Origin: an uncultured virus (IMG/VR IMGVR_UViG_3300035698_005065)
Taxonomy: Duplodnaviria > Heunggongvirae > Uroviricota > Caudoviricetes
Length of the DNA stretch: 20,000 nt
Strand: one strand, 5' to 3'
Virus record (IMG/VR): IMGVR_UViG_3300035698_005065
Shown in pieces: positions 5,500 to 20,000 of the stretch (its first letter is position 1; each line of letters starts with the position of its first letter). The position numbers were made by a program, and so were the translations under genes. The notes below the pieces were generated by a model, which ran no database searches, had not been told where the DNA came from, and saw only the letters and a list, made by a program, of their open reading frames with translations.

Positions 5500-5729
5500 T
5501 GAGCGACTTACCTTACGAGACGATCCCCCACCCGTTCAACAAAGGAGATAAGAGGCGCGTTTACGTGCTGCCGGTCATGACTCGCATAGAGTTAGAGGTC
5601 GACGACGACCTCGACCAATGCGAGATCGACTCTCTAATCAAGCGACTGCAGTCTCAAGAGATGCACCTGAGTTTGATAAGCGGCCGCTACAGAGCGCGGA
5701 GCTTAAAACCTACCAAAGACAACCAATGA
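5499..5729 (+). CDS. hypothetical protein
   Basis: 76 aa ORF, TAATG overlap upstream, ATGA overlap into paralog copy 1. Confidence 0.65.
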   Translation: MSDLPYETIPHPFNKGDKRRVYVLPVMTRIELEVDDDLDQCEIDSLIKRLQSQEMHLSLISGRYRARSLKPTKDNQ

Positions 5730-6187
5730 AATTAAAACAATCTGGGCCTCTTGCGCCCACCAATGAACCGTGGAATCTCATCCGCGATGCCATTTTCGAT
5801 CTTGGACTTCAAGAGCAGCAGGAGGGCGTGGAGATCGAGATGGAAAGTCGGGGAACGATGAACGAGTGGCACGATCAACGCGACGGCGCGTGTCACCAGT
5901 GCCTCGCCGGGTCTGTCATGTCCCGGCGCCTTGGCGTTAATACTGACGCCTCCGCTTTCCCGTTCAACTTCCCCGACGACGTGAGAGACAGGCTCTGCGC
6001 GCTGGACGATTTCCGCAACGGGGAGATTGGCTTCGCCTACCGCGAGCTGAAACTAGAACTCCCCTCCTCGATTCCTGAGCGCGTGTTTATCCCGGACTAC
6101 CACCACGGCCACGCCGCCTTCAAGGCATCCATGCTAAAACTCGCCGACCAATTAGAGGCGGCACAACCAACCAAAACCAAGCTATGA
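5726..6187 (+). CDS. WH-CxQC paralog family, copy 1 (6 aa insertion)
   Basis: ATG 5726 (MKLKQSGPLAP) in ATGA overlap; family motifs intact. Confidence 0.9.
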   Translation: MKLKQSGPLAPTNEPWNLIRDAIFDLGLQEQQEGVEIEMESRGTMNEWHDQRDGACHQCLAGSVMSRRLGVNTDASAFPFNFPDDVRDRLCALDDFRNGEIGFAYRELKLELPSSIPERVFIPDYHHGHAAFKASMLKLADQLEAAQPTKTKL

Positions 6188-6624
6188 TACTAGAACAATC
6201 CGGGGAACTCGCGCCCGCCAATGAACCGTGGACCCTCATCCGCGATGCGATCCACGACCTCGAACTTCAAGAGAAGCAGGAGGGCGTCGATGTCGATATG
6301 AGCGGCTGGCACGTTCCAATTATCAACGGCGCGTGTCACCAGTGCCTCGCCAGGTCTGTCATGTCCCGGCACCTTGGTATTGATACGGATAATCGCGCAG
6401 ACCCGTTCGACTACCCCGACGACGTAGCGGGCAGGCTCCGCGCGCTGAACTGGCTCAGCATCGGGGAGGTTAACGTTGCCTACCGCAGGCTGAAACTAGA
6501 GTTCCCCGATACGCTTCCTGAGCGCGTGCACATCCCGGGCTACCGCCACAGCCCGCCCGCCTTCAAGTCCGCTATGCTCGACCTCGCCGACCGATTAGAG
6601 TCGGCACAACCAGTCAACCAATGA
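6184..6624 (+). CDS. WH-CxQC paralog family, copy 2
   Basis: Family motifs, ATGA coupling. Confidence 0.9.
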   Translation: MILEQSGELAPANEPWTLIRDAIHDLELQEKQEGVDVDMSGWHVPIINGACHQCLARSVMSRHLGIDTDNRADPFDYPDDVAGRLRALNWLSIGEVNVAYRRLKLEFPDTLPERVHIPGYRHSPPAFKSAMLDLADRLESAQPVNQ

Positions 6625-7064
6625 AATTGAAACAATCCGGGCCTCTTGCGCCCGTCAATGAACCGTGGACCTTGATCCGCGACGCCATCCACGACCTGAC
6701 GCTTCAAGAAAAGCTGAAGGGCGTTAAGATTCGCATGTCTAATTGGCACTTACCAAGCGCCGGCGTGTGTCACCAATGTCTCGCCGGGTCTGTCATGTCG
6801 CGGCGCCTCGGCGTTGATACTAATGCTGACACGCGCCCACACGAATTACCAGACGTAGCGGCCAGGCTCCGCGCGCTGGAGGAGTTACGGTGCGGGGAGA
6901 TTAGAGCCGCCTACCACAAGCTGAAACTAGAGCGCCCCGCTTCGCTTCCTGTGCGCGTGCCTATCCCGAACTACCACCGCCGCGGTCCCTCCGCCTTCAA
7001 GGCAGCCATGCTAAAACTCGCCGACCGACTCGAGTTAGCGCAACCAGAACCAACCAAACCATGA
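6621..7064 (+). CDS. WH-CxQC paralog family, copy 3
   Basis: Family motifs, ATGA coupling. Confidence 0.9.
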   Translation: MKLKQSGPLAPVNEPWTLIRDAIHDLTLQEKLKGVKIRMSNWHLPSAGVCHQCLAGSVMSRRLGVDTNADTRPHELPDVAARLRALEELRCGEIRAAYHKLKLERPASLPVRVPIPNYHRRGPSAFKAAMLKLADRLELAQPEPTKP

Positions 7065-7507
7065 TACTAGAACAATCCGGGCCACTAGCGCCCGCCAACG
7101 AACCGTGGACCTTGATCCGCGACGCCATAAAAGACCTGGAACTGCAGGAGAAGCAGAAGGGCGTTAAGATCGAGATGGGCCGTTGGCACACCCCGTATCA
7201 TTACGGCAACGGCGTGTGTCACCAATGTCTCGCTGGGGCTGTCATGTCGCGGCGCCTCGGCGCTGATACTGACGCCTACATAGTTCCGACCAGCTTCCCC
7301 GCCGACGTTTTGGCCAGACTCGACGCGCTGGACGATTTACGCGGCGGGCATATTGGCGACGCCTACAGTTGGCTGGGACTAGAGCGTCCCTCCTCGATTC
7401 CTGAGCGCGTGTTTATCCCGCACTACCACTTCGGCCCAGCCGCCTTCAAGGCAGCCATGCTAAAACTCGCCGACCGATTAGAGGCGGCACAACCAACCAA
7501 ACCATGA
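7061..7507 (+). CDS. WH-CxQC paralog family, copy 4
   Basis: Family motifs, ATGA coupling. Confidence 0.9.
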   Translation: MILEQSGPLAPANEPWTLIRDAIKDLELQEKQKGVKIEMGRWHTPYHYGNGVCHQCLAGAVMSRRLGADTDAYIVPTSFPADVLARLDALDDLRGGHIGDAYSWLGLERPSSIPERVFIPHYHFGPAAFKAAMLKLADRLEAAQPTKP

Positions 7508-7935
7508 TACTAGAACAATCAGGGACACTCGCTCCCGCCAATGAACCGTGGACCCTCATCCGCGACGCCATCCACGACCTGACGCTCCAAGAGAAGCAGA
7601 AGGGCGTTGCGATCGATATGTTCGACTGGCACTACCCTCACGATACCGGGTGTTACCAGTGCCTCGCAGGTGTGGTAATGTCGCGCAGGCTAGACGCTGA
7701 TACTGATAACACCGCAAGCCCGTGCGGCTACCCCGACGACGTGAGAGACAGGCTCTACGCGCTGAACTCACTCCGCGGCGGGGCGATTGGCATCGCCTAC
7801 GATTATCTGGGGCTAAAGCGCCCCGCTTCTCTTACTGCGCGCGTAACTATCCCGGGCTACCACCGCGTCTCCCCAGCCGCCTTCAAGGCAGCCATGCTCA
7901 AACTCGCCGACCAACTCGAGGCGGCACACCATTAG
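7504..7935 (+). CDS. WH-CxQC paralog family, copy 5 (tail replaced, ends EAAHH)
   Basis: Family motifs; homology to other copies stops at GCGGCACA (~7928). Confidence 0.9.
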   Translation: MILEQSGTLAPANEPWTLIRDAIHDLTLQEKQKGVAIDMFDWHYPHDTGCYQCLAGVVMSRRLDADTDNTASPCGYPDDVRDRLYALNSLRGGAIGIAYDYLGLKRPASLTARVTIPGYHRVSPAAFKAAMLKLADQLEAAHH

Positions 7936-7959
7936 TCTCGCCTAAGCAGCGGCGCGGGG

Positions 7960-7965
7960 TAAAAT
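7960..7965 (+). promoter_or_regulatory. possible -10 element (TAAAAT) for a leaderless RNAP transcript
   Basis: TAAAAT at -12..-7 relative to ATG 7972; no SD; no -35 recognised. Confidence 0.3.
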
Positions 7966-7971
7966 AACCGC

Positions 7972-9183
7972 ATGACCGACGATATCCCGACCACCGGCCC
8001 AGAGGCTATTATGCACGCGTTGCAGCGTATGGACTTAGACGCCATCGAGAAGGAGCAACGCCAAGTCATCACCGACCGCAAGAAGACGAAAAGACCGCGG
8101 GCTGTGCGTTTATTGAACATCATCGCGGGCCTACGTAAGAACGAGATGCAGCCATCCGAACTGATGGTGCACAGTGTACCGGTGATACCTCCGAAGTTCC
8201 GCCCGTTCTCGGTTACCGGGAACACCTTCCTGCCCGGAGACGCCAACGAACTCTACCGTGATCTGATGGAGTATCAGCGCCTCTACAACAAGACAGAGGA
8301 GGTCATGGGTCGCGGTGCGGCCGGTGAAGTCTACGAGGATTTAAATAAAGCAGTGCGGGCCGTTTACGGGTATGGGGAATCTCCCAATCCCAAGACTCGT
8401 GCGCGTAAGGTTAAGGGATTCTTCACGGCCGTGACTGGGACGAACCCTAAGACGAGCTGGTTGCAAAGTAAGATGCTGTCGAAGCCTGTCGATACGGTCG
8501 GTCGCGGCGTCATTGTCCCGGACGCAGATCTGGGTATGGACGAGATCGGAATCCCGGAAGAGATGGGATGGAAGCAGTTCGGTAACTACGTGCAGCGCCG
8601 CCTAGTGCGTAGCGGTATGTCAGCGCCCGACGCCCTGAGACACTTGGTGAATCGCACCCCGCAAGCTAGGAAGGCTTTGGAGATGGAGTTGCCGGAGCGT
8701 CCGATTGTTTTGACCCGCTCGCCGAGTTGGATAAAGACCGGGGTCATCGGCCAGATCGCTAGGCTTGTCCCAGGCGACGCGATACAGATCAATAACTTTG
8801 TTTCGGCAGGACTCGGAGCCGACTTCGACGGGGATACCGTTTCCATCCACACCCCGTCGTCTGACGAGACTGTCAAGAATGTGAGGGAGAAGCTGATGGC
8901 TTCCCACATGCTTTGGTCTACGAAGGATCGGGACACCGCGAACGCAATACCTAAACACGAGAGTGTGCTTGGGCTCTCGCTCGGGCGCGACTCGGGAGGT
9001 AAGAAACGCTACTACGACACGGACGAGGATGCTATGGCCGCTATCGATAGCGGAGAGATGGATCTCAATGACGACGTCGAGATCGGCACTAACCCCAACC
9101 AACCAAACCATGATACTAGAACAATCAGGGGCACTCGCGCCCGCCAACGAGCCGTGGACCCTCATCCGCGACGCTATCCATGA
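7972..9183 (+). CDS. rpoC: DNA-directed RNA polymerase beta' subunit, stand-alone catalytic middle module (phage split RNAP)
   Basis: TGPEAI..MDLD, VPVIPPKFRP, DANELYRDL, LSKPVDTVGRGVIVPD, TRSPS, GADFDGD and PKHESVLGL are collinear with bacterial beta' GAEAI, PVLPPDLRP, DLNDLYR, GKRVDYSGRSVI, NRAPT, NADFDGD, PSQDVVLGL; the last ~30 codons run into repeat DNA. Confidence 0.93.
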   Translation: MTDDIPTTGPEAIMHALQRMDLDAIEKEQRQVITDRKKTKRPRAVRLLNIIAGLRKNEMQPSELMVHSVPVIPPKFRPFSVTGNTFLPGDANELYRDLMEYQRLYNKTEEVMGRGAAGEVYEDLNKAVRAVYGYGESPNPKTRARKVKGFFTAVTGTNPKTSWLQSKMLSKPVDTVGRGVIVPDADLGMDEIGIPEEMGWKQFGNYVQRRLVRSGMSAPDALRHLVNRTPQARKALEMELPERPIVLTRSPSWIKTGVIGQIARLVPGDAIQINNFVSAGLGADFDGDTVSIHTPSSDETVKNVREKLMASHMLWSTKDRDTANAIPKHESVLGLSLGRDSGGKKRYYDTDEDAMAAIDSGEMDLNDDVEIGTNPNQPNHDTRTIRGTRARQRAVDPHPRRYP

Positions 9184-9547
9184 CCTGACGCTTCAAGAGA
9201 AGCAGAAGGGCGTTAGGATCGAGATGAGCGACTGGCACTTCCCACACGACGGCGTGTGTCACCAATGTCTCGCTGGGGCTGTCATGTCGCGGCGCCTCGG
9301 CGTTGATACGAATGACAACAAGTTCCCGTTCGACTTCCCCAAAGACGTAGCGGCCAGGCTCCGCGCGCTGGACCATTTACGTTACGGGAGTATTGTCTTC
9401 GCCTACCGCAAGCTGGAACTAGTGCGCCCCGCTGAGCTTCCTTTTGATGTGACCGTCCCGGACTACCACCGCGGCCCAGCCGCCTTCAAGTCAGCCATGC
9501 TAAAACTCGCCGACCTACTCGAGTCGGCACAACCAACCAAACCATGA
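9110..9547 (+). CDS. WH-CxQC paralog family, copy 6
   Basis: ATG 9110 (MILEQSGALAP) after AACCAACCAAACC; the longer 8963 start is read-through in RNAP DNA. Confidence 0.9.
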   Translation: MILEQSGALAPANEPWTLIRDAIHDLTLQEKQKGVRIEMSDWHFPHDGVCHQCLAGAVMSRRLGVDTNDNKFPFDFPKDVAARLRALDHLRYGSIVFAYRKLELVRPAELPFDVTVPDYHRGPAAFKSAMLKLADLLESAQPTKP

Positions 9548-9990
9548 TACTAGAACAATCCGGGGCACTCGCTCCCGCCAATGAACCGTGGACCTTGATC
9601 CGCGACGCCATAAAAGACCTCGAACTTCAAGAGAAGCAGGCGGGCGTTAAGATCGAGATGCGCGACTGGCACTTCCCACGCGGCGGTGGTGTGTGTCACC
9701 AGTGCCTCGCCGGGTCTGTCATGTCGCGGCGCCTCGGCGTTGATACTGATTACGACGCAGACCCGTTCGACTACCCCGAAGACGTAGCGGACAGGCTCCG
9801 CGCGCTGGACGATTTACGCACCGGGGAGATTGGCTTCGCCTACCGCAAGCTGAAACTAGAGCGCCCTGATACGTTTCCTGCGCGCGTGCCTATCCCACGC
9901 TACGCAGACGGCCCAGCCGCCTTCAAGTCAGCCATGCTAAAACTCGCCGACCAATTAGAGGCGGCACAACCAGAACCAACCAAGCCATGA
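9544..9990 (+). CDS. WH-CxQC paralog family, copy 7
   Basis: Family motifs, ATGA coupling. Confidence 0.9.
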   Translation: MILEQSGALAPANEPWTLIRDAIKDLELQEKQAGVKIEMRDWHFPRGGGVCHQCLAGSVMSRRLGVDTDYDADPFDYPEDVADRLRALDDLRTGEIGFAYRKLKLERPDTFPARVPIPRYADGPAAFKSAMLKLADQLEAAQPEPTKP

Positions 9991-10433
9991 AATTGAAACA
10001 ATCCGGGACGCTCGCTCCCGCCAACGAACCGTGGACTCTCATCCGCGATGCCATTTTCGATCTTGAACTCCAAGAGAAGCAGAAGGGCGCGAAGATCGCG
10101 ATGGGCGACTGGCACTTACCACGCGACGGCGTGTGTTCGCAGTGCCTCGCCGGGTCTGTCATGTCGCGACGCCTCGGCGTTGATACGAATGACAACAAGT
10201 TCCCGTCCACCTTCCCCGAAGACATAGCGGCCAGGCTCTACGCGCTGGACCATTTCCGCAACGGGGACATTGACGACGCCTACCGCAAGCTGGAACTAGA
10301 GTGTCCCGCTTCGCTTCCTTATAGCGTGCCTATCCCGGACTACGAAAACGGCCCACCCGCCTTCAAGGCGGCCATGCTAAAACTCGCCGACCTACTCGAG
10401 TCGGCACAACCAAAACCAACCGCACGTCAATGA
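9987..10433 (+). CDS. WH-CxQC paralog family, copy 8
   Basis: Family motifs, ATGA coupling. Confidence 0.9.
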   Translation: MKLKQSGTLAPANEPWTLIRDAIFDLELQEKQKGAKIAMGDWHLPRDGVCSQCLAGSVMSRRLGVDTNDNKFPSTFPEDIAARLYALDHFRNGDIDDAYRKLELECPASLPYSVPIPDYENGPPAFKAAMLKLADLLESAQPKPTARQ

Positions 10434-10795
10434 AACTGAGAAGATTATTCGCGACCTTATACGCCGCGATACTGCGCGCCGGCACTCCAGCGTCGGCCGA
10501 GCCTCCCAAGACAAACGATGCCCGACGCACCCTACGTCTCAGGGATTACGTCAGAGACATGGAGGCCGCTGGGTATGTGTGCTCCTTCTGTCAGCCCATC
10601 CCCGTCCCAGAGCTGATGACCGACCGGGAGGGAACGATAAGAATAAGCAGGGAGTCGTATGCTAACCACCTTGATTTATACCAAGAGGTGATGGTTCCTG
10701 CTGAAGATGTCGCGATTCATATCGTGATGGGTCTGCACTTCTGGTATTTCGATTCTGTATCTGCGGACGCCCCGAATATTGGAGATTATTTTTAA
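10430..10795 (+). CDS. hypothetical protein (possible N-terminal signal-like segment)
   Basis: 121 aa ORF coupled by ATGA to copy 8; MKLRRLFATLYAAILRAGTPASA N-terminus. Confidence 0.65.
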   Translation: MKLRRLFATLYAAILRAGTPASAEPPKTNDARRTLRLRDYVRDMEAAGYVCSFCQPIPVPELMTDREGTIRISRESYANHLDLYQEVMVPAEDVAIHIVMGLHFWYFDSVSADAPNIGDYF

Positions 10796-10802
10796 ACTTT
10801 AA

Positions 10803-10879
10803 GCGCGCGTAGCTTAGCGGTTCAAAGCAGCCGTCTCATAAACGGAAGATCGCGGGTTCAAATCCCGCCACGCGTACCA
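10803..10879 (+). tRNA. tRNA with CAT anticodon (elongator Met or Ile2)
   Basis: Cloverleaf: acceptor GCGCGCG/CACGCGT, D arm GCTT..AAGC, anticodon arm CCGT-CTCATAA-ACGG, T arm GCGGG-TTCAAAT-CCCGC, encoded ACCA end. Confidence 0.92.
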
Positions 10880-10883
10880 ACTT

Positions 10884-10920
10884 AACACCCGCCCGGACAA
10901 CCGGGCGGGTGTTCTAATTT
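10884..10920 (+). terminator. intrinsic terminator-like hairpin after tRNA
   Basis: Perfect 13 bp inverted repeat AACACCCGCCCGG-acaa-CCGGGCGGGTGTT followed by CTAATTT. Confidence 0.75.
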
Positions 10921-10923
10921 ACC

Positions 10924-11073
10924 ATGAAAACAAAAAACGAAAAATGCTACTGGGACTTCAGCGCCGAGGCACCGGCGTATTCCTCCCAATATACGAGCGG
11001 CGGTCGCTCGTCCATCTTTAAGGTTAGCGCGTTCGCCGTCGAAGATGCTACCACCCCCGACCGTCATGCGTGA
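10924..11073 (+). CDS. small hypothetical protein (49 aa, not in ORF track)
   Basis: ACCATG start, MKTKNEKCYWDFSAEAPAY...DRHA, stop overlaps the next ATG at 11066. Confidence 0.5.
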   Translation: MKTKNEKCYWDFSAEAPAYSSQYTSGGRSSIFKVSAFAVEDATTPDRHA

Positions 11074-11314
11074 AGTATTCTGCAGCCCTAGCCAGGGGCC
11101 AACCAAGGAAGCCCCCAAAGGCGTCTTCGCGGAGGCCTACTCCGTGACTGTGACCTACCTGACAGAGTTCGGAAAGTTGATACAAGGGGCCGAGGTCACC
11201 GTGTATGTGGACGTGCTCGCAGGAGGGGAGGAGAAGGTCAGCCACGAGAGAGCTGCCGACGTCGTGCGGGGAGCCCACCCCGGGTGCGACGTAACCAAAG
11301 TGACCTACTGGTAG
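11066..11314 (+). CDS. hypothetical protein
   Basis: In-frame ATG 11066 (MREVFC) of the 11045 ORF; start uncertain. Confidence 0.6.
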   Translation: MREVFCSPSQGPTKEAPKGVFAEAYSVTVTYLTEFGKLIQGAEVTVYVDVLAGGEEKVSHERAADVVRGAHPGCDVTKVTYW

Positions 11315-11315
11315 C

Positions 11316-11567
11316 ATGAACAACAACCATTTGCGGCCCGCGTTTGCGGCCTACCAGCATTCCGTCCCAGGGTTTCCGCATGTCATACTCAAGTGGCACG
11401 AGGACAAAGGAATCGTCGTTTCGCAATACGTCACGATTAAAGGAAAAATACACCCGTGGACGTTTGAGACGGGCCACGGCATGTCCGTAAATTTCGACCG
11501 TGTCATTCCTCACTTCGAAGCGTGGGTGCGCGCGGTCTATTGGGACGACGTCACCGTGCAAGGATGA
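11316..11567 (+). CDS. hypothetical protein
   Basis: 83 aa ORF starting 1 nt after the previous stop. Confidence 0.65.
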   Translation: MNNNHLRPAFAAYQHSVPGFPHVILKWHEDKGIVVSQYVTIKGKIHPWTFETGHGMSVNFDRVIPHFEAWVRAVYWDDVTVQG

Positions 11568-11585
11568 ACAAAAATCAACCAACCA

Positions 11586-12026
11586 ATGAAATTAAAACAA
11601 TCCGGGCCTCTTGCGCCCGCCAATGAACCGTGGACCTTGATCCGCGACGCCATCCACGACCTGACGCTTCAAGAAAAGCTGAAGGGTGTTATGATCAATA
11701 TGAGTAATTGGCACTTACCAAGCGCCGGCGTGTGTCACCAATGTCTCGGCGGGTCTGTCATGTCGAGGCGTCTCGGCGTTGATACTAATGCTTGCGCAAA
11801 CCCGATCAACTACCCCAAAGACGTAGCGGCCAGACTCCACGCGCTGGACGATTTCCGCATCGGGGATATTTACGCCGCCTACGACAGACTGGACCTAGAT
11901 CGTCCCGCTTCGCTTCCTCTTGATGTGACCGTCCCGAGCTACCACCGCCCACCCGCCTTCAAGGCAGCCATGCTCGCAATCGCCGACCTACTCGAGGCGG
12001 CACAACCAACCAAAACCAAGCTATGA
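11586..12026 (+). CDS. WH-CxQC paralog family, copy 9
   Basis: Family motifs. Confidence 0.9.
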   Translation: MKLKQSGPLAPANEPWTLIRDAIHDLTLQEKLKGVMINMSNWHLPSAGVCHQCLGGSVMSRRLGVDTNACANPINYPKDVAARLHALDDFRIGDIYAAYDRLDLDRPASLPLDVTVPSYHRPPAFKAAMLAIADLLEAAQPTKTKL

Positions 12027-12469
12027 TACTAGAACAATCCGGGGCACTCGCGCCCGCCAATGAACCGTGGACCCTCATCCGCGATGCGATCCACGACCTC
12101 GAACTTCAAGAGAAGCAGAAGGGCGTTGCGATCGTGATGGGTAATTGGCACGACCCATACGGCGGCGGCGTGTGTCACCAGTGTCTCGCCGGGTCTGTCA
12201 TGTCTCGGCGTCTCGGTGCTGATACGGATAACTACTCAAACCCCAGAGGCTACCCCGAAGACGTAGAGGCCAGGCTCCTCGCGCTGGAAGATTTACGCGG
12301 CGGGCATATTGGCGACGCCTATAGTTGGCTGGGACTAGAGCGTCCCTCCTCGACTCCTGAGCGCGTGTTTATCCCGCACTACCACTTCGGCTCAGACGCC
12401 TTCAAGGCAGCCATGCTAAAACTCGCCGACCTACTCGAGTCGGCACAACCAAAACCAACCAAACCATGA
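12023..12469 (+). CDS. WH-CxQC paralog family, copy 10
   Basis: Family motifs, ATGA coupling. Confidence 0.9.
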   Translation: MILEQSGALAPANEPWTLIRDAIHDLELQEKQKGVAIVMGNWHDPYGGGVCHQCLAGSVMSRRLGADTDNYSNPRGYPEDVEARLLALEDLRGGHIGDAYSWLGLERPSSTPERVFIPHYHFGSDAFKAAMLKLADLLESAQPKPTKP

Positions 12470-12912
12470 TATTAGAACAATCCGGGCCGCTAGCGCCCGC
12501 CAATGAACCGTGGACCTTGATTCGCGACGCCATAAAAGACCTGGAACTGCAGGAGAAGCAGGAGGGCGTTAAGATCGAGATGAACAGCTGGCACGACCCA
12601 TACGGCGGCGGCGCGTGTCATCAATGCCTCGCCGGGTCTGTCATGGCGCGGCGCCTCGGTGTTGATACTGGCGCCGTCGCGTTCCCAGACAACTTCCCCG
12701 ACGACGTGAGAGACAGGCTCCGCGCGCTGGAGGAGTTACGGTGCGGGGCGATTGGCGACGCCTACGTTTATCTGGGGCTAGAGCACCCCGATACGCTTCC
12801 TCGGGATACGTGTATCCCGAGCTACCGCGACGACCCAGACGACTTCAAGGAATCCATGCTCGCACTCGCCGACCAATTAGAGGCGGCACAACCAACCAAA
12901 ACCAACCAATGA
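12466..12912 (+). CDS. WH-CxQC paralog family, copy 11
   Basis: Family motifs, ATGA coupling. Confidence 0.9.
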   Translation: MILEQSGPLAPANEPWTLIRDAIKDLELQEKQEGVKIEMNSWHDPYGGGACHQCLAGSVMARRLGVDTGAVAFPDNFPDDVRDRLRALEELRCGAIGDAYVYLGLEHPDTLPRDTCIPSYRDDPDDFKESMLALADQLEAAQPTKTNQ

Positions 12913-13355
12913 TATTAGAGCAATCCGGGACACTCGCGCCCGCCAACGAACCGTGGACCTTGATCCGCGACGCCATCCATGACCTCGAACTCCAAGAGAA
13001 GCAGGAGGGCGTTAGGATCGATATGGGTAATTGGCACGACCCATACGGCAGCGTGTGCCTGCAATGTCTCGCCGGGTCCGCCATCTCGCGGCGCCTCGGC
13101 GTTGATACTGATGACGACGCAGAACCGATCGACTACCCCGAAGACGTGAGAGACAGGCTCCTCTCGATTGACTGTTTCCGTACCGGGGATATTGGCACCG
13201 CCTACGAGTATCTGGGGCTAGAGCACCCCGCTTCTCTTACTGCGCGCGTAACTATCCCGAACTACCACCGAAACGGCCCAGCAGCCTTCAAGGAGGCCAT
13301 GCTAAAACTCGCCGACCAACTCGAGGCGGCACAACCAACCAAAACCAAGCTATGA
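12909..13355 (+). CDS. WH-CxQC paralog family, copy 12
   Basis: ATG 12909 in ATGA overlap; the 12741 start is off-frame read-through of copy 11. Confidence 0.9.
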   Translation: MILEQSGTLAPANEPWTLIRDAIHDLELQEKQEGVRIDMGNWHDPYGSVCLQCLAGSAISRRLGVDTDDDAEPIDYPEDVRDRLLSIDCFRTGDIGTAYEYLGLEHPASLTARVTIPNYHRNGPAAFKEAMLKLADQLEAAQPTKTKL

Positions 13356-13798
13356 TACTAGAACAATCCGGGACACTCGCGCCCGTCAATGAACCGTGGA
13401 CCTTGATCCGCGACGCCATTTTCGATCTTGAACTTCAAGAGAAACAGGAGGGCGTCGATGTCGATATGGACCATTGGCACTTCCCATACGGCGGCGGCGC
13501 GTGTCATCAATGTCTCGCCGGGTCTGTCATGTCGCGACGCCTCGGCGTTGATACTGACGCCCACAAGTCCCCAGACAACTACCCCAAAGACGTAGCGGTC
13601 AGACTCCACGCGCTGGACGATTTACGGTGCGGGGAGATTGATACCGCCTATCGCGAGCTGAAACTAGAACTCCCCTCCTCGATTCCTGAGCGCGTGCCTA
13701 TCCCACGCTACCGAAACGGCCCCTCCGCCTTCAAGGCAGCCATGCTAAAACTCGCTGACCAATTAGAGGCGGCACAACCAGAACCAACCAAGCCATGA
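13352..13798 (+). CDS. WH-CxQC paralog family, copy 13
   Basis: Family motifs, ATGA coupling. Confidence 0.9.
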   Translation: MILEQSGTLAPVNEPWTLIRDAIFDLELQEKQEGVDVDMDHWHFPYGGGACHQCLAGSVMSRRLGVDTDAHKSPDNYPKDVAVRLHALDDLRCGEIDTAYRELKLELPSSIPERVPIPRYRNGPSAFKAAMLKLADQLEAAQPEPTKP

Positions 13799-14400
13799 TA
13801 TTAGAACAATCAGGGCCTCTCGCTCCCGCCAATGAACCGTGGACCTTGATCCGCGACGCCATCCACGACCTCGAACTCCAAGAGAAGCTGAAGGGCGTTA
13901 AGATCAATATGGACCATTGGCACATCTCATACGACGGCGTGTGTTCGCAGTGTCTCGGCGGGTCTGTCATGTCGAGGCGTCTCGGTGCTGATACGGATGC
14001 TCGCGCAGACCCGTTCGACTACCCCGACGACGTGAGAGACAGGCTCTACGCGCTGGACAATTTCCGCATCGGGGAGATTGGCTACGCCTACCGCAGGCTG
14101 AAACTAGAGCGCCCTGATACGCTTCCTAAGCGCGTGGATGTTCCGCGCTACCGCCGCGGCCCCTCCGCCTTCAAGGCAGCCATGCTAAAACTCGCCGACC
14201 AACTCGAGGCGGCACAACCAACCAGCCGTGAAATGAATTACAGAAAAAAAGAACCCAGCGGTCAAAACTCCAAGTGGCGCGAGCGTGCACGTAGAAAGCG
14301 AGCGTGTGACGACATCATTCTCCGCGTCACTTTCGCTGTTATTGTGTCGGCAGTCGTGGGTGCTATTGCATTAGCCATCGCAGCCTATAATCGATCATGA
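13795..14400 (+). CDS. WH-CxQC paralog family, copy 14, fused in frame to a basic/transmembrane tail
   Basis: Family domain continues without stop into MNYRKK...VTFAVIVSAVVGAIALAIAAY (internal ATG 14233). Confidence 0.85.
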   Translation: MILEQSGPLAPANEPWTLIRDAIHDLELQEKLKGVKINMDHWHISYDGVCSQCLGGSVMSRRLGADTDARADPFDYPDDVRDRLYALDNFRIGEIGYAYRRLKLERPDTLPKRVDVPRYRRGPSAFKAAMLKLADQLEAAQPTSREMNYRKKEPSGQNSKWRERARRKRACDDIILRVTFAVIVSAVVGAIALAIAAYNRS

Positions 14401-14612
14401 ACGCGTCCGATAAAATGCTTCACGCGCTACCAAGCATAGCGCCTCTCGACTAGCTTATATTTCGCGACCAACTAAAACCGTTACCCGTTCCTGACAATGA
14501 GCACCGGGGAGATCGCGGCTGCGCGGCTTGTCGTCATCTCCCTCGCTAACTCAGATAAAAACTATGGACTTTCTTCTCAAGTCGCGCTTTTACGACCCCC
14601 TATTAAATTGAC

Positions 14613-14804
14613 ATGACTACTAACGAAATCATCTTCAACAGCATCGACGCCTTTGCCTTCCTCTTATGGTTCATCGGATGCTCGCTTCTCGCCTTAGCTC
14701 TTATTATGCTCCCTCACGATGGTGACGATGACGTTCCCCCGGACGCAAGTTGGCTCGATAAAAATCAAACGGCACGGGGGCGGCGGTTATCGCCGTCGTT
14801 GTGA
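14613..14804 (+). CDS. small membrane protein
   Basis: 63 aa with hydrophobic AFAFLLWFIGCSLLALALIML. Confidence 0.55.
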   Translation: MTTNEIIFNSIDAFAFLLWFIGCSLLALALIMLPHDGDDDVPPDASWLDKNQTARGRRLSPSL

Positions 14805-14956
14805 TGACGATTGGCTATTCCATCAAACTCATCGCGAAAAACTTACTCGGGCAGTGAGTATTAAATCAACGCTAGGGGTGTCGGTCACTGTTAAGATTCT
14901 AAGGCGCGGCCGGGAGCGACACTCCCAAGGCGGCCTACATCTGTGGGGGCGGTCAC

Positions 14957-15427
14957 GTGGTCGATCGTAACGCGCCGCACCGCCCGCACTGGTTACGCAC
15001 CACCTCGCGAGAGGTGACGTGTAATATCTGCGGCCGCCGAGGGCCCTACTCTATCCAATCCGAGGTTTTGTGCGCGCCGTTCCCCGACGCGCCATACCGC
15101 CTAGTGGTGTGCGGCGGGAGGGACTACGAGTTTACGGATGCGGACAGGACGCTTCTAGACGCGATCCCGATCGCAGTGGTGATCAGCGGAAACGCCAAGG
15201 GAGCTGACAGATGCGGAGAGCTCTACGCAGTTAGCAGGGGAATACGAACCGAGCGATACCCGGCGGACTGGGACAAATATGGTCACCAAGCCGGGGCGAA
15301 GCGTAATAGGCTCATGGCGCAGAAGGCCACAGCCGTCGCTGCGTTTCCGGGAGGATCCGGGACGGCGGACATGATCAAGCAGGCCGCCATATTTAAACTG
15401 ACGCTATTTGACTTCTCAAGGCGGTAA
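14957..15427 (+). CDS. SLOG superfamily protein (DUF2493 / YspA-like)
   Basis: LVVCGGRDY, VISGNAKGAD, YPADWDKYG..AG..RN..M, AFPGGSGTADM motifs; start codon uncertain. Confidence 0.88.
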   Translation: MVDRNAPHRPHWLRTTSREVTCNICGRRGPYSIQSEVLCAPFPDAPYRLVVCGGRDYEFTDADRTLLDAIPIAVVISGNAKGADRCGELYAVSRGIRTERYPADWDKYGHQAGAKRNRLMAQKATAVAAFPGGSGTADMIKQAAIFKLTLFDFSRR

Positions 15428-15466
15428 AGCCATGCGGCCCCAACTGCCATCAACGAAATAACCAAT

Positions 15467-15907
15467 ATGAAGATAACTTTTAAAAAAGCAGAAGTCGCGC
15501 ACCTCGTTGCGGCGACAAAGTCCGCAGCCACGTGCACGGTCCCCTACACGGGAGAAGGCTGGGGGGTTCCCGAGGAAACTACGCCAGGAATTTGCGTCAT
15601 CGGCGACGCCGGCATCTACATGATGTCAAACCGCACCAGCGACGAAGGAAGCGCGAATCACATCAACGAGGCTACAGGGGGCGATCAAAGAAATGCAGCC
15701 TACGCCCAGGAGTGCGACCCTCAATCCGTAGAAAGCTGTTACGATACGAAGCGCGAGGCGTTCGGCGACGACGGCGTCGAGTTCATAGAGCTGGACACTA
15801 TACAGGAGTGGATAGACAAAACCCCCGGGGACATACTCAAGATGAATATGACGCCGGACTCTCTGTCGTTCTTATTCGTAAGCTCCCCCTCCGCGCGCGT
15901 AAGGTAA
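15467..15907 (+). CDS. DUF3085-like protein
   Basis: PGICVIGDAGIYMMSN...AYAQECDP...FGDDGVEFI pattern recalled from DUF3085. Confidence 0.78.
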   Translation: MKITFKKAEVAHLVAATKSAATCTVPYTGEGWGVPEETTPGICVIGDAGIYMMSNRTSDEGSANHINEATGGDQRNAAYAQECDPQSVESCYDTKREAFGDDGVEFIELDTIQEWIDKTPGDILKMNMTPDSLSFLFVSSPSARVR

Positions 15908-16031
15908 CTCTAGCCGTCGTAGAGATACGGGCACGGAGCGACGCGGATCGAGAAGTTAACCTGGGAGACCCCATCGCTAAAACTGCTCAGTTGCGCAGCC
16001 TCACCTTAATCAACACCAACAAAACTAAAAA

Positions 16032-16229
16032 ATGAAACCAACATTCAAAACTATATTCGTCACTGACGACACCGAAGAATTCGACCGACAAATAACCGAC
16101 CTTCTCCGTCAGGGCTACCGACTCCACGGATCCCCCCGCTCGCACGTTATCCACCCGCCGAGACACACGGACGCCCAGTCCCTCGTTTCTCTCACTCAAC
16201 ACCTCTACCACACAGGCAATGAGAATTAA
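16032..16229 (+). CDS. DUF1737-like small protein
   Basis: EEFDRQITDLLRQGYRLHGSP pattern; A/C-rich leader. Confidence 0.62.
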   Translation: MKPTFKTIFVTDDTEEFDRQITDLLRQGYRLHGSPRSHVIHPPRHTDAQSLVSLTQHLYHTGNEN

Positions 16230-16815
16230 CGAATGGCGATCCGAGGCGTATAAAAACTTCACGGACGTCCTCCACGACACATGCATCCCGGGATTCTCCT
16301 ACCGCATTAGAGGCGCGCCTACGCGTCGCGCTGCCGTTTCTCAAGAACTCGTGAGGGCGCTTCAGGCCGGCCAGACTCCTGATATTGGTGATGCCCGCGC
16401 GTTGGGGCACGACCGATACGCTCTGCCGGGTAAGATTGTCTTGCGCATCGCCGGCCCGCTTGTGGTCGACGTAAAAAAAACGGGAACGTCGGTCCCAGTG
16501 TCTCTCCCTATCGGTAAGATGCTCGCCGAGCAGCGCCGCGAGATGTTGCTCGCGATCATCGACGCCGGTAGTAGCGTCAGGTCTCGTATCAGCCCACGAG
16601 GCACCGAGCTGCACTATCAACGGGACATCCGCGTCGTCCGGAGGTTCGCTTGGCTTCCCGTGACCGCAAAGGATCAGAGCGGCACCCCGCGACGCCTGTG
16701 GTTTCGATCTTACTACCAAGAGCAGACCTATGACGAAGGCCTATCATGCGGAGTCATCAACGAGTTCATCGAAGGTCGCTGGTATGAAACTAAAAGCAAA
16801 TTCTACATCAAATGA
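16219..16815 (+). CDS. hypothetical protein
   Basis: 198 aa ORF; C-terminal RRFAWLPV..RLW motif seen in small phage proteins. Confidence 0.7.
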   Translation: MRINEWRSEAYKNFTDVLHDTCIPGFSYRIRGAPTRRAAVSQELVRALQAGQTPDIGDARALGHDRYALPGKIVLRIAGPLVVDVKKTGTSVPVSLPIGKMLAEQRREMLLAIIDAGSSVRSRISPRGTELHYQRDIRVVRRFAWLPVTAKDQSGTPRRLWFRSYYQEQTYDEGLSCGVINEFIEGRWYETKSKFYIK

Positions 16816-17390
16816 CACCACTTACTATCAGCATTCTCCTTGTTCTAGTATTGCTGGACCTGACGATGCATGCTTTACTTCACGCCCGTTACTTGACGCG
16901 CGATAACCTCAGCGACCGCCGTCAAAAGGAAGAAATTCTTCAAGCCCAACGGCGGTATCGCAAGGCAGCAGAAGCGCGGTGCACGGATGTAATAAGAGTT
17001 CTCGCGCTTTACCAGGTTAACACTACCGCGGCCTTATGGGCTGCTGACTACGTGTCGCGTGACCAGGCACATGATGACCCGGGTGTTGAGGAGTCACTGC
17101 GCCGGGCGGTGGAGGGTGCACGTGTGTCTGATTCCCTGCGCGCACTTGACGACGCGCCTGTGAAGGAGTCCGCCGTCACGCTGTTCAACCGACACCTCAG
17201 GTCGTTCACCTCAGCGTTTGCTGACGTGTATGTAACAGACCTGCGGCCCGACGGGACCGGCACTCTGTGCATCATTGACACCGATGAGGGAGTTGCCCGC
17301 CCCACGTATCACGAATTCGATAACTTACTAGAGGTCGTGTTTAAGTTAAAAAAATCAAAAGAGGATTATGAAATACCTACCAGCGATTGA
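16812..17390 (+). CDS. hypothetical protein with N-terminal membrane anchor
   Basis: ATGA coupled; hydrophobic LTISILLVLVLLDL N-terminus. Confidence 0.72.
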   Translation: MTPLTISILLVLVLLDLTMHALLHARYLTRDNLSDRRQKEEILQAQRRYRKAAEARCTDVIRVLALYQVNTTAALWAADYVSRDQAHDDPGVEESLRRAVEGARVSDSLRALDDAPVKESAVTLFNRHLRSFTSAFADVYVTDLRPDGTGTLCIIDTDEGVARPTYHEFDNLLEVVFKLKKSKEDYEIPTSD

Positions 17391-17679
17391 CCTATGGATG
17401 CCCGGCATCTCCGCGGCGATACTCAGTAACCAGCTTCGCTTACAAGTGGGGCAGTGGGTATACTGCGGGAGCGACAAGCCCTCACGGTATGTGAAGCACA
17501 CAGGGCGGCCCATATGGGCCGCCCACCCTGAGGGGGTAAAAGGGACCAAGGAATCCTTCAAGAGCCTCCTGAGGGCGTCCAGGGGATCAAATCAACCAAC
17601 CATCAAACCAATGAAGATATCCGAAAACTACAAGGCGCTCACTGAGTGTGAAAACAAGAACATCACGCGCCATGAGTAA
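17368..17679 (+). CDS. hypothetical protein
   Basis: 103 aa ORF with GAGG upstream; internal AACC leader and in-frame ATG at 17611. Confidence 0.65.
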   Translation: MKYLPAIDLWMPGISAAILSNQLRLQVGQWVYCGSDKPSRYVKHTGRPIWAAHPEGVKGTKESFKSLLRASRGSNQPTIKPMKISENYKALTECENKNITRHE

Positions 17680-17971
17680 AGAGGCAGGAATGGCGGCCGT
17701 GCAGCATAGCGAAATCAGTTACTACGTGGACAGCCGGCACGTAACGACGTCGCCGCGCGTCATGGCTCGCGCGTTGATAAATAAGCTGCGGAGTAAAAAG
17801 GCCCAGCGCGCGTCTCGCCGCTACATCATCGCCGCCGTTTTCAACCGTTGGGCGCGTAACATGTGGGAATACAAATACGTCATGGGGTCAGTTCCTAGGA
17901 GTTACCCCAGTTACGTCGCTCGTTACTTGTGGGACGACAATAAGAAGGAGGTCGTGATCCGAGAACCTTAG
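17672..17971 (+). CDS. hypothetical basic protein
   Basis: In-frame ATG 17672 (MSKEAG) overlapping the previous stop. Confidence 0.65.
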   Translation: MSKEAGMAAVQHSEISYYVDSRHVTTSPRVMARALINKLRSKKAQRASRRYIIAAVFNRWARNMWEYKYVMGSVPRSYPSYVARYLWDDNKKEVVIREP

Positions 17972-18047
17972 AGGAGACATCGTGAGCGGCTACTACGACA
18001 GACGCTACATGCATACGCAGGAACATGAACCGCTAAAAAGTTAGCAC

Positions 18048-18075
18048 AACCAACCAACCAACCAACCAACCAACC
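18048..18075 (+). repeat. (AACC)7 microsatellite at the head of array D
   Basis: Seven perfect AACC units read directly. Confidence 0.95.
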
Positions 18076-18086
18076 AAAACCAAGCC

Positions 18087-18530
18087 ATGATACTAGAACA
18101 ATCCGGGACACTAGCGCCCGCCAATGAACCGTGGACTCTTATCCGCGATGCGATCCACGACATCGAACTTCAAGAGAAGCAGGAGGGCGTCGATGTCGCT
18201 ATGGACCAGTGGCACTTCCCACTCGACGGCGTGTGTTATCAATGTCTCGCCGGGTCTGTCATGTCGCGGCGTCTCGGCGCTGATACGGATGACCACAAGT
18301 CCCCAATCAACTTCCCCGACGACGTAGAGGCCAGGATCCGCGCGCTGAACTTACTCCGCGGCGGGGCGATTGGCATCGCCTACCGCGAGCTGAAACTAGA
18401 ACTCCCCGCTTCGCTTCCTTATAGCGTTCCTATCCCGGACTACGAAAACGGCCCCTCCGCCTTCAAGGCATCCATGCTAAAACTCGCTGACCGATTAGAG
18501 GCGGCACAACCAAAACCAACCAAGCCATGA
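18087..18530 (+). CDS. WH-CxQC paralog family, copy 15
   Basis: Family motifs. Confidence 0.9.
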   Translation: MILEQSGTLAPANEPWTLIRDAIHDIELQEKQEGVDVAMDQWHFPLDGVCYQCLAGSVMSRRLGADTDDHKSPINFPDDVEARIRALNLLRGGAIGIAYRELKLELPASLPYSVPIPDYENGPSAFKASMLKLADRLEAAQPKPTKP

Positions 18531-18970
18531 AATTGAAACAATCAGGGACAATAGCTCCCGCCAATGAACCGTGGACCTTGATCCGCGACGCGATCCACGA
18601 CCTCGAACTCCAAGAGAAGCAGGAGGGCGTCGAGATCGATATGACCGCGTGGCACGATCAACGCGACGGCTCGTGCCAACAATGTCTCGCCGGGTCCGTC
18701 ATGTCCCGGCGTCTCGGCACTGATACGGATGACAAAAAGTTCCCAGACAGCTTCCCCAGGGACGTAGAGGCCAGGCTCTACGCGCTGGAATATTTCCGGC
18801 TCGGGGAGGTTGACGAAGCCTACGAGTATCTGGGGCTAGAGCACCCCGCTTCTCTTACTGCGCGCATACCTATCCCGGGCTACCACCGCGGCCCCTCCGC
18901 CTTCAAGGCAGCCATGCGCAAACTCGCTGACCGATTAGAGGCGGCACAATCAAAACCAACCAAACCATGA
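18527..18970 (+). CDS. WH-CxQC paralog family, copy 16
   Basis: Family motifs, ATGA coupling. Confidence 0.9.
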   Translation: MKLKQSGTIAPANEPWTLIRDAIHDLELQEKQEGVEIDMTAWHDQRDGSCQQCLAGSVMSRRLGTDTDDKKFPDSFPRDVEARLYALEYFRLGEVDEAYEYLGLEHPASLTARIPIPGYHRGPSAFKAAMRKLADRLEAAQSKPTKP

Positions 18971-19410
18971 TATTAGAACAATCCGGGACACTCGCGCCCG
19001 CCAACGAACCGTGGACCTTGATCCGCGACGCCATCCACGACCTAGAGCTCCAAGAGAAACAGGAGGGTGTTAGGATCGATATGGGTATTTGGCACGCCCG
19101 CGGCGGCGTCACGTGTCATCAATGCCTCGCCGGGTCTGTCATGTCCCGGCGTCTCGGCGCTGATACTGATGATCATGCGTCCCCAGACAACTTCCCCAGA
19201 GACGTGAGAGCCAGGCTCCGCGCGCTGAACTCACTCCGCGGCGGGGCGATTGGCATCGCCTACGATTATCTGAGGCTAAAGCGCCCCGCTTCGCTTCCCG
19301 ATCACGTGCCTATCCCGCGCTACCGCTTCGGCCCAGACGCCTTCAAGGCAGCCATGCTAAAACTCGCCGACCGACTCGAGTCAGCGCAACCAAAACCAAC
19401 CAAACCATGA
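18967..19410 (+). CDS. WH-CxQC paralog family, copy 17
   Basis: Family motifs, ATGA coupling. Confidence 0.9.
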   Translation: MILEQSGTLAPANEPWTLIRDAIHDLELQEKQEGVRIDMGIWHARGGVTCHQCLAGSVMSRRLGADTDDHASPDNFPRDVRARLRALNSLRGGAIGIAYDYLRLKRPASLPDHVPIPRYRFGPDAFKAAMLKLADRLESAQPKPTKP

Positions 19411-19853
19411 TATTAGAACAATCCGGGACACTCGCGCCCGCTAATGAACCGTGGACCTTGATCCGCGACGCCATCCACGACATCGAACTCCAAGAGAAAC
19501 AGGAGGGCGTTACGGTCGAGATGGACAGCTGGCACGACCCATACGGCGGCAGCGCGTGTCATCAATGCCTCGCCGGGTCTGTCATGTCGCGGCGTCTCGG
19601 CGTTGATACTGGCGCCGTCGCGTTCCCAGACGACTACCACATAGACGTAGAGGCCAGACTCTGCGCGCTGGACGATTTCCGGCGCGGGGGTATTCACGTT
19701 GCCTACCGCAGGCTGAAACTAGAGTTCCCCGGCACACTTCCTGCGCGCGTGCCTATCCCGGAATACGAAGACGATCCATCCGCCTTCAAGTTAGCCATGC
19801 TCGCACTCGCCGACCGACTCGAGTCAGCGCAACCAAAACCAACCAAGCCATGA
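19407..19853 (+). CDS. WH-CxQC paralog family, copy 18
   Basis: Family motifs, ATGA coupling. Confidence 0.9.
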   Translation: MILEQSGTLAPANEPWTLIRDAIHDIELQEKQEGVTVEMDSWHDPYGGSACHQCLAGSVMSRRLGVDTGAVAFPDDYHIDVEARLCALDDFRRGGIHVAYRRLKLEFPGTLPARVPIPEYEDDPSAFKLAMLALADRLESAQPKPTKP

Positions 19854-20000
19854 TACTAGAACAATCCGGGACACTCGCGCCCGCCAACGAACCGTGGACC
19901 TTGATCCGCGACGCCATCCATGACCTCGAACTCCAAGAGAAGCAGGAGGGCGTTAGGATCGATATGAACGAGTGGCACGACCCAATTAGAGGCGGCGGTG
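19850..20000 (+). CDS. WH-CxQC paralog family, copy 19 (partial, cut by window end)
   Basis: MILEQSGTLAPANEPWTLIRDAIHDLELQEKQEGVRIDMNEWHDPIRGGG from ATG 19850. Confidence 0.88.
   Translation, partial: MILEQSGTLAPANEPWTLIRDAIHDLELQEKQEGVRIDMNEWHDPIRGGG

What the first reader, a model, noticed from the sequence alone, without database searches (positions are those of the whole stretch)
6621..19853. Variable segments are shuffled as modules between distant copies
Seen: blocks are shared by non-adjacent copies in conflicting combinations. Copies 4 and 10 share a 102 nt block (7334-7435 vs 12290-12391, 2 mismatches; LRGGHIGDAYSWLGLERPSS.PERVFIPHYHFG) but differ upstream. Other shared blocks: MSNWHLPSAGVCHQ (3, 9), LEELRCG (3, 11), SWHDPYGG..DTGAVAFP (11, 18), NSLRGGAIGIAYDYL.LKRPASL (5, 17), DTNDNKFP (6, 8), ASLPYSVPIPDYENGP (8, 15), YEYLGLEHPASLTAR (12, 16), ADPFDYP (2, 7, 14), WHDQRDG (1, 16). 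Inference: recombination or gene conversion through the constant frameworks generates combinatorial diversity, analogous to antigenic-variation cassettes except that every cassette is an intact coupled gene.
Basis: partly seen in the sequence, partly recalled or inferred. Interest (0 to 1): 0.8.

Follow-up and report, generated by a model that had tools for sequence, protein, structure and literature searches.

The report
Recombining 27-copy phage gene array
A large salt-lake phage carries at least 27 intact copies of a small gene of unknown function that swap short stretches of DNA with one another, so every copy is a different patchwork; the process is ordinary recombination between gene copies, but the size of the array and signs of selection for new surface residues are unusual for a phage.

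Summary
The mosaicism is real. All ten listed blocks are in the sequence, and the signal exceeds 1000 of 1000 recombination-free simulations. It is not an assembly artefact: separate assemblies repeat the window almost base for base, and 16 of 18 complete copies recur unchanged on 8-18 contigs each. The window holds part of an array of at least 27 (probably about 30) intact, ATGA-coupled paralogs, 72-87% identical, in a large RNA-polymerase-encoding phage. Relatives elsewhere are mostly single-copy. Exchange is ongoing: recurrent alleles carry tracts from other copies, several joined at only 5-18 identical bases. Segments are not intact modules, breakpoints also fall inside variable segments, the frameworks are mosaic too, distance between copies does not matter, and there are no silent cassettes. 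Best reading: non-allelic homologous recombination (conversion plus unequal crossover), probably by the phage's own RecA/SbcCD-type kit, acting on a conserved core with excess amino-acid diversity at tolerant positions (pN/pS about 1.5). The protein folds confidently, has no match among solved structures and no known function; a host-interaction role is inferred, not shown. Known process, unusual scale.

The parts
5726..6187 (+). copy 1 (153 aa, 18-nt in-frame insertion in V1); first of run 1
6184..6624 (+). copy 2 (146 aa); polymorphic at 6206, 6521, 6530 between runs
6621..7064 (+). copy 3 (147 aa); also found fused to the 3' end of copy 4 (P0227, 7 contigs)
7061..7507 (+). copy 4 (148 aa)
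7334..7435 (+). 102-nt block shared with copy 10 (2 mismatches)
7504..7935 (+). copy 5 (143 aa); end of run 1
7972..9183 (+). RNA polymerase beta-prime fragment (GADFDGD) between runs 1 and 2; its last 31 codons overlap the leader and start of copy 6
9110..9547 (+). copy 6 (145 aa); an alternative allele carries a tract identical to copy 7 (L010, P0161, P0214)
9544..9990 (+). copy 7 (148 aa); the copy modelled at pLDDT 96.8
9987..10433 (+). copy 8 (148 aa); end of run 2
11586..12026 (+). copy 9 (146 aa); first of run 3
12023..12469 (+). copy 10 (148 aa)
12290..12391 (+). 102-nt block shared with copy 4
12466..12912 (+). copy 11 (148 aa)
12909..13355 (+). copy 12 (148 aa)
13352..13798 (+). copy 13 (148 aa)
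13795..14400 (+). copy 14 (201 aa; reads on into a basic then hydrophobic tail); end of run 3
18040..18086 (+). (AACC)n leader in front of run 4; the same repeat forms the C-terminal tail of each copy and the leader of the next
18087..18530 (+). copy 15 (147 aa); first of run 4
18527..18970 (+). copy 16 (147 aa)
18967..19410 (+). copy 17 (147 aa)
19407..19853 (+). copy 18 (148 aa)
19850..20000 (+). start of copy 19; run 4 goes on with copies 19-23, and run 5 (copies 24-27) follows in L006/L007

Best explanation
A large phage has amplified one small gene (about 147 aa, compact helical fold with an invariant WH and CxxC) to at least 27 intact copies in five translationally coupled runs. Amplification was probably by unequal crossover, with the AACC-rich tail of one copy serving as the leader of the next (inferred). 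The copies, 72-87% identical, keep exchanging DNA by non-allelic homologous recombination: short conversion-like tracts and crossovers that fuse neighbours or change copy number (shown from alignments and alleles). Any copy can pair with any other, and junctions fall wherever a few to a few dozen identical bases lie, inside variable segments as well as frameworks (shown). The phage's own RecA-family recombinase, SbcC/SbcD pair and helicases are the likely machinery (genes shown, role inferred). Selection keeps the frame and core intact and appears to favour new residues at tolerant positions (statistical support). The most likely job is binding a variable host component inside the cell, such as a defence or takeover target, with recombination multiplying the variants (inferred; I put the function at about 0.45, the recombination mechanism at about 0.9).
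For: Mosaic beyond chance: 0 of 1000 simulations reach any of six statistics; each of five segments rejects the four other segment trees, AU p<=0.001. Real, not chimeric: window reproduced at 99.99-100% by L003/L008, L004/L006, L001/L013, L009; 16 of 18 complete copies recur letter for letter on 8-18 contigs; the longest exact repeat among 27 copies is 105 nt; contigs of four runs cross several variable segments without another letter (table 8). Ongoing exchange: L010 has copy 6 with 11 differences, all equal to copy 7, left junction 18 nt, and that allele is on 4 contigs; c3/c4 fusion P0227 on 7 contigs, junction 7 nt; c21-type tract joined to the 3' half of c19 at 8 nt in 5 proteins on 6 contigs; c26 with a c8-type end on 4 contigs, 5 nt; two alleles of c2 separate runs X1 and X9. 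Selection: all 27 copies are open frames and indels are in frame; N-terminal framework pN/pS 0.18; at 40 codons chosen as tolerant from the family-wide alignment pN/pS is 1.5 (bootstrap 1.25-1.84). Machinery: RecA-family, Rad50/Mre11-like, RecQ, PIF1 and NAD ligase genes upstream. Expansion is lineage-specific: 26 of 30 other viral loci hold one copy, 3 hold two, 1 holds three.
Against: No raw or long reads were available; the runs laid were contigs. Contig counts may include re-assemblies of the same reads. Four of the five recurrent alleles rest on protein sequence only, so a donor outside the 30 known copies, with longer identity, is possible. Twelve single-contig hybrids cross at 20-55 nt exact runs and could be chimeras; they were set aside. 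No whole segment has pN/pS above 1 with a bootstrap interval clear of 1, codon bias could lower pS, and variability in the array follows that of the whole family (rho 0.71), as relaxed constraint would also give. Nothing here shows expression, a partner or a host. RecA-type recombination normally needs longer identity than 5-8 nt (recalled), so the enzyme is uncertain.
Confidence: 0.7

Rival explanations
1. Same recombination, no selection for diversity: the gene was amplified for dosage or selfishly, the core is conserved, tolerant positions drift, and shuffling is a by-product of many similar copies in a recombination-prone genome.
For: Array variability tracks family-wide tolerance (rho 0.71); overall dN/dS 0.59; segment-level pN/pS about 1; no dedicated recombination sites; T4 amplifies an anti-toxin gene by microhomology recombination for dosage (PMC9391042, passages).
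Against: Codon positions 1-2 at tolerant codons are twice as heterozygous as four-fold sites (0.47 vs 0.23, p=4e-6; four alleles at 36 of 280 positions vs 1 of 37). No pair above 87% identity, whereas a pure dosage array should homogenise. No pseudogene among 27 copies.
Confidence: 0.2
2. Programmed cassette system: defined variable modules are exchanged through constant frameworks by a dedicated mechanism.
For: Constant/variable architecture and whole-segment sharing in some pairs (c2/c20 V1 identical, c17/c21 V2 distance 0.02).
Against: Recombination inside V3 and V4; junctions inside variable segments; mosaic frameworks; no silent copies; no recombinase or site specific to the array among the genes scanned.
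Confidence: 0.04
3. Diversity-generating retroelement acting on many target genes, which would explain hypervariable codons of the NNC type.
For: Several codons vary at positions 1-2 with a fixed third base (codon 93: ten codons, all ending in C); A is the commonest base at four-allele sites (341 of 1076).
Against: 75 of 254 polymorphic columns lack A, like the other three bases (83, 99, 95); invariant columns hold 35 A of 166. Variation covers the whole gene and includes in-frame indels and long shared tracts.
Confidence: 0.03
4. The mosaic is an assembly artefact (de Bruijn chimeras among similar copies or strains).
For: Short contigs do show many one-off hybrids at long exact runs, and several contigs end inside the array.
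Against: The same copies in the same order recur in separate assemblies; shared blocks keep fixed differences (c4/c10: 2 mismatches on 8 and 11 contigs), which mis-joining cannot create; 83% of sampled 31-mers are in the best run.
Confidence: 0.03

Closest known systems
Interlocus (non-allelic) gene conversion and unequal crossover in tandem paralog families (general knowledge; PMC3790853 and PMC3966223 seen as search listings only)
   Same: Patchwork paralogs, conflicting segment trees, alleles carrying tracts from other copies, copy-number change by fusion.
   Different: Here in a phage, with at least 27 copies (12 kb), no effect of distance, and junctions at 5-18 nt of identity between copies about 22% diverged.
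T-even gp38 adhesin: four hypervariable segments between glycine-rich motifs, shuffled by recombination (PMC3157838, passages seen)
   Same: Conserved motifs alternate with hypervariable segments and recombination makes chimeras.
   Different: gp38 is one virion gene whose library is spread over many phage genomes, with exchanges often in or near the conserved motifs; here the library sits in one genome, junctions lie inside variable segments too, and there is no sequence or fold likeness.
Genomic accordion: T4 dmd-tifA segmental amplification (PMC9391042, passages seen)
   Same: Tandem amplification of a small phage gene, with boundaries at 6-10 bp microhomologies as reported there; counter-defence role is a possible parallel.
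   Different: Those copies are fresh amplifications of one locus; these are old, 72-87% identical, stable across samples and diversified.
Relaxed (homeologous) phage recombination by Rad52-like recombinases (PMC3945230, abstract seen)
   Same: Homology-driven exchange that tolerates diverged substrates.
   Different: Shown there between phages and prophages; the recombinase found here is RecA-family, and no Rad52-like gene was among the Pfam hits of the genes scanned.
Antigenic-variation cassettes (vlsE, msp2, pilE/pilS; recalled)
   Same: Segmental conversion builds combinatorial variants on a conserved frame.
   Different: No silent donor cassettes, no single expression locus, no sign of one-way transfer.
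PeSL regulatory cassettes of T4-type phages (PMC2839356, abstract seen)
   Same: A two-hairpin intergenic repeat flanks run 5 and the second group of copies and could drive whole-gene moves.
   Different: It is absent from the window's four runs, so it does not explain the within-gene mosaic.

Membership tests
Paralog family under non-allelic recombination | Conflicting histories along the gene beyond homoplasy | tested here: met
Paralog family under non-allelic recombination | Alleles of one locus that differ by a tract copied from a paralog | tested here: met
   L010 copy 6 with copy-7 tract at DNA level; P0161/P0214 on 4 contigs
Paralog family under non-allelic recombination | Non-reciprocal conversion as against double crossover | not testable with these tools
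   needs products of single events
Antigenic-variation cassette system | Silent, partial donor cassettes | tested here: not met
   27 of 27 copies are full open frames; 15 of 15 copy-to-copy junctions in the window are ATGA overlaps
Antigenic-variation cassette system | Breakpoints confined to conserved flanks, intact modules | tested here: not met
Antigenic-variation cassette system | One expression locus | not testable with these tools
   no expression data
Diversity-generating retroelement | Adenine-specific substitution | tested here: not met
   75 of 254 polymorphic columns lack A
Diversity-generating retroelement | Reverse transcriptase and template repeat | tested here: inconclusive
   none in about 125 kb seen of an estimated 185 kb
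Diversity-generating retroelement | C-type lectin or Ig-like target fold | tested here: inconclusive
   model is mainly helical; structure search does not exclude unlisted families
Genomic accordion | Near-identical tandem copies from recent amplification | tested here: not met
   pairwise identity 71.9-87.3%
Genomic accordion | Copy-number polymorphism with microhomology boundaries | tested here: inconclusive
   c3/c4 fusion on 7 contigs implies loss of one unit at 7 nt identity, protein level only
gp38-type adhesin | Virion tail-fibre tip protein with glycine-rich motifs | tested here: inconclusive
   no Pfam, PHROG or NCBIfam match; no such motifs in the alignment; virion location untested
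DUF6197 (PF19698) | Pfam match at the curated cut-off | tested here: not met
   1 of 150 members at E=0.002; hhalign against a DUF6197 protein gave probability 1.5% over 12 columns; atlas lead only, 14-20% of members of two clusters

The most novel reading that the evidence does not exclude
The array is a selected, genome-encoded repertoire: about 30 co-expressed binders of an undescribed fold, with a constant N-terminal arm and core and a diversifying surface, which the phage reshuffles by low-stringency recombination to keep up with a variable host target. That would be a phage counterpart of MHC or NLR clusters, a diversity generator that needs neither reverse transcriptase nor silent cassettes, and it would point to the function of a family with thousands of viral members.
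Probability: 0.3. Interest if true: 0.8.

Novelty: new variant of a known kind. Interest (0 to 1): 0.55.

Why it matters
Phage genomes are under packaging limits and rarely keep many paralogs, yet this one spends at least 12 kb on one family that is single-copy in most other viruses examined. It offers a natural, repeatedly sampled population in which recombination between 22%-diverged copies, tract lengths and copy-number change can be measured directly from reads. It also singles out a large uncharacterised viral protein family (4,472 clusters at 50% identity) with a confident model and no structural match as a candidate host-interaction factor, with some 30 natural variants ready for a comparative assay.

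Tried and rejected
Family libraries gave nothing for the copies: Pfam and PHROGs, NCBIfam (114), PADLOC (0 of 150), PDB sequences (best E 0.24). Structure: the 18-sequence model (pLDDT 74) had no Foldseek match in PDB or BFVD at E<=0.001; the 150-sequence model (pLDDT 96.8) had best Z 4.2 among 48,161 chains and two uncharacterised viral proteins in BFVD at E 0.008 and 0.02; this does not show the fold is new. No family member in the phage isolate collection or among 51 candidate stretches in bacterial genomes (patterns from close copies only). No reverse transcriptase in G002, by motif scan (73) or among scanned ORFs (51, 95). No RNA holder listed. The three joints trace to copies outside the stretch laid, not to new recombinants. 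A copying-model fit preferred equal switch rates in frameworks and variable segments, but it has a constant mismatch rate and no control, so I do not rely on it or on its 10-nt tract estimate. L011, L005 and twelve single-contig hybrids were set aside as possible chimeras. Neighbours of single-copy relatives are not conserved (2 similar pairs among 113 ORFs; 78 of these scanned). Promoter and terminator scans were at chance level. No homo-oligomer prediction was obtained, so oligomer state is open. Literature searches found no report of a comparable phage array; the library lacks most subscription papers, and no supplements were read.
Full report
WHAT IS THERE. The window is part of a large tailed-phage genome. 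It has an RNA polymerase beta-prime fragment at 7972-9183 (Pfam Rpb1_2; about 30% identical to the enzyme of Salmonella phage Arash and of Vibrio and Rhizobium phages of 154-206 kb), a tRNA-Met, an exonuclease and many small genes. The 24 listed runs that hold it are salt lake metagenomes. Nineteen copies of a 143-153 aa gene start in the window, in four runs. Overlapping contigs add eight more, making 27 copies in five runs and 11,984 nt. Two or three further copies lie in L014-L016. These are probably the same genome: a protein of their cluster sits on a contig of 160,313 bp, the same length as the longest contig for the window's copies, and their contigs are laid at similar depth. All 27 copies are open frames, all indels are in frame, and all 15 copy-to-copy junctions in the window are ATGA stop-start overlaps. 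Pairwise identity is 71.9-87.3%, mean 78.3%.

The 102-nt block has 2 mismatches, and the other nine listed blocks are exact runs of 22-52 nt. Site incompatibility rises from 0.44 at 1-2 nt to a plateau of about 0.96 at 41-80 nt, and the PHI-type statistic was reached by 0 of 2000 permutations at two window sizes and 5 of 2000 at the third (18 copies). Because saturation on a star-like tree can mimic this, I simulated 1000 data sets on the best single tree with site-specific rates. None reached the observed number of long shared runs, the near/far incompatibility ratio (0.77) or the between-segment correlation (0.009). Each of five segments rejects the trees of the four others, and well-supported clades conflict: (c1,c8), (c2,c10) in the N-terminal framework; (c1,c16), (c2,c20) in V1; (c6,c9), (c8,c15) in V4 (short-segment trees are overfitted, so the simulation is the stronger test). 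Two statistics were weaker: only 5 of 153 pairs passed an exact-run permutation test at P<0.01, and a discordant-pair count fell inside the simulated range.

NOT A CHIMERA. Contigs of four other assemblies match the window at 99.99-100% over 3-17.5 kb, with the same copies in the same order. Sixteen of the 18 complete copies recur letter for letter on 8-18 contigs each; copy 2 differs by one residue from its commonest allele and copy 6 is split among start calls. Such counts may include re-assemblies of the same reads. The longest exact repeat among the 27 copies is 105 nt. Mis-joining cannot create two versions of a block with fixed differences, as c4 and c10 have. Contigs from four runs cross several variable segments of copies 5, 6, 7, 9 and 12 without another letter. 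No raw reads were available.

EXCHANGE IS ONGOING. In L010 copy 6 differs from the window at 11 columns, all equal to copy 7; the left junction lies in 18 identical bases, the right in 31. That allele is on 4 contigs, and the window's allele shares a 54-nt run with copy 4 over much of the same stretch. P0227 joins the first 116 residues of copy 3 to the end of copy 4 and is on 7 contigs up to 83 kb; the parents share 7 bases at the junction. A copy-21-type tract meets the 3' half of copy 19 at 8 identical bases in 5 proteins on 6 contigs. Copy 26 with a copy-8-type end is on 4 contigs (5 bases). Copy 2 has two alleles; run X9 shows the alternative letters at 6521 and 6530, X1 does not. The internal duplication of copy 20 is also polymorphic. 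Junctions this short cannot be crossed by a de Bruijn assembler at usual word lengths (general knowledge), but most are known from protein only and an unseen donor is possible. I set aside twelve single-contig hybrids that cross in 20-55 nt exact runs, and L011 and L005, as possible chimeras.

Simulating each variable segment as an intact module on its own tree, the observed rise of incompatibility with distance was matched by 0 of 150 runs for V3, 5 of 150 for V4, 11 of 150 for V2 and 30 of 150 for V1. The junctions above lie in V1, V3 and V4. Similarity does not depend on distance along the genome. The picture is a fine patchwork in which any copy pairs with any other, not cassettes moved through fixed frames.

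SELECTION. Overall dN/dS is 0.59; the N-terminal framework is strongly conserved in amino acids although it is not homogenised at silent sites (pS 0.37, pN 0.07). At 40 codons chosen as tolerant from the family-wide alignment, without looking at the array, pN is 0.44 against pS 0.30 for the gene, ratio 1.5 (1.25-1.84), and codon positions 1-2 are twice as heterozygous as four-fold sites. The variable residues fall on one face of the predicted helices (79, 82, 83, 86, 90, 93; 97, 98, 101, 102). Against this, whole segments have pN/pS near 1, codon bias may depress pS, and array variability follows family variability (rho 0.71). A retroelement is unlikely: polymorphic columns are not adenine-specific and no reverse transcriptase was seen in about 125 kb of an estimated 185 kb.

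THE PROTEIN. A profile finds 4,472 cluster representatives at E<=0.001; the nearest atlas clusters are mostly viral. Nearly invariant across 150 members are W42, H43, C51, C54, G57, R92, G94, Y120 and F127, which suggests a metal site (inference). AlphaFold2 gives pLDDT 96.8 with the deep alignment. The family is unnamed; the DUF6197 lead failed. In 30 other viral loci it is single in 26, double in 3 and triple in 1, within the flanks fetched, among unrelated small genes. So the expansion belongs to this phage.

MECHANISM. Shown: intact coupled array, mosaic, recurrent recombinant alleles, conserved core. Inferred: amplification by unequal crossover, helped by the AACC-rich tail that is also the next leader; exchange during recombination-dependent replication, for which the phage has a RecA-family gene, a Rad50/Mre11-like pair, RecQ, PIF1 and an NAD ligase; selection for new surface residues; an intracellular host target. 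T4 amplifies tifA at 6-10 bp microhomologies (PMC9391042, passages), lambdoid recombinases tolerate diverged substrates (PMC3945230, abstract), and gp38 adhesins shuffle hypervariable segments (PMC3157838, passages), so each step has precedent.

NOVELTY. The process is known, and earlier notes of this scan describe mosaic paralogs in other large phages (unchecked). Seven literature searches returned no report of a phage array of this size with population-level shuffling. What stands out is the scale, the absence of pseudogenes, the very short junctions, the pN excess and the unknown fold. Verdict: real feature, new variant of a known kind, interest 0.55.

Noticed in passing
window 7972-9183: The beta-prime fragment aligns with Arash gp206 up to that protein's last residue (VEIG vs IKIG), then reads 31 codons on through the AACC leader and start of copy 6, as if run 2 had been inserted at its stop codon. 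The polymerase is in at least three separate pieces (window, L020, L014).
   Followed up: partly
L006 8510-8595 and 9484-9561; seven times in L014 960-3770: A 75-90 nt two-hairpin intergenic repeat (z -4.2) precedes a series of unrelated small genes and some family copies, like PeSL cassettes; twice it is preceded by an orphan 3' end of the family gene (L014 913-961, 2434-2470).
   Followed up: partly
window 13795-14400: Copy 14 runs to 201 aa with a basic stretch and a hydrophobic C-terminal segment, found on 10 contigs: a fusion that could anchor one variant in the membrane.
   Followed up: no
L006 6752-7213 and 10001-10465: Copies 20 and 25 carry in-frame internal duplications or insertions near the C-terminal variable end; copy 20 also lacks four residues in helix 1, and its duplication is absent in two database alleles.
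   Followed up: partly
L014 9378-11789: A further RNA polymerase fragment (Rpb1_5) holds an intein with a LAGLIDADG domain.
   Followed up: no
L014 1-620; L015 722-5291: Other local duplications in the same phage: three related short hydrophobic ORFs in tandem, and two large adjacent ORFs sharing a long repeated domain, so duplication is not limited to this family.
   Followed up: no
window, gene starts: Most genes have A/C-rich leaders without a Shine-Dalgarno motif, a hint at a host that initiates translation without one.
   Followed up: no
window 10803-10879 and 14957-15427: tRNA-Met and a YspA/SLOG-family gene lie between runs; a SLOG gene also neighbours one single-copy relative (L034).
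   Followed up: no
L012 116-990: Two copies only about 84% identical to any of the 27, made of many short pieces of them: a different haplotype or related phage with its own patchwork.
   Followed up: partly
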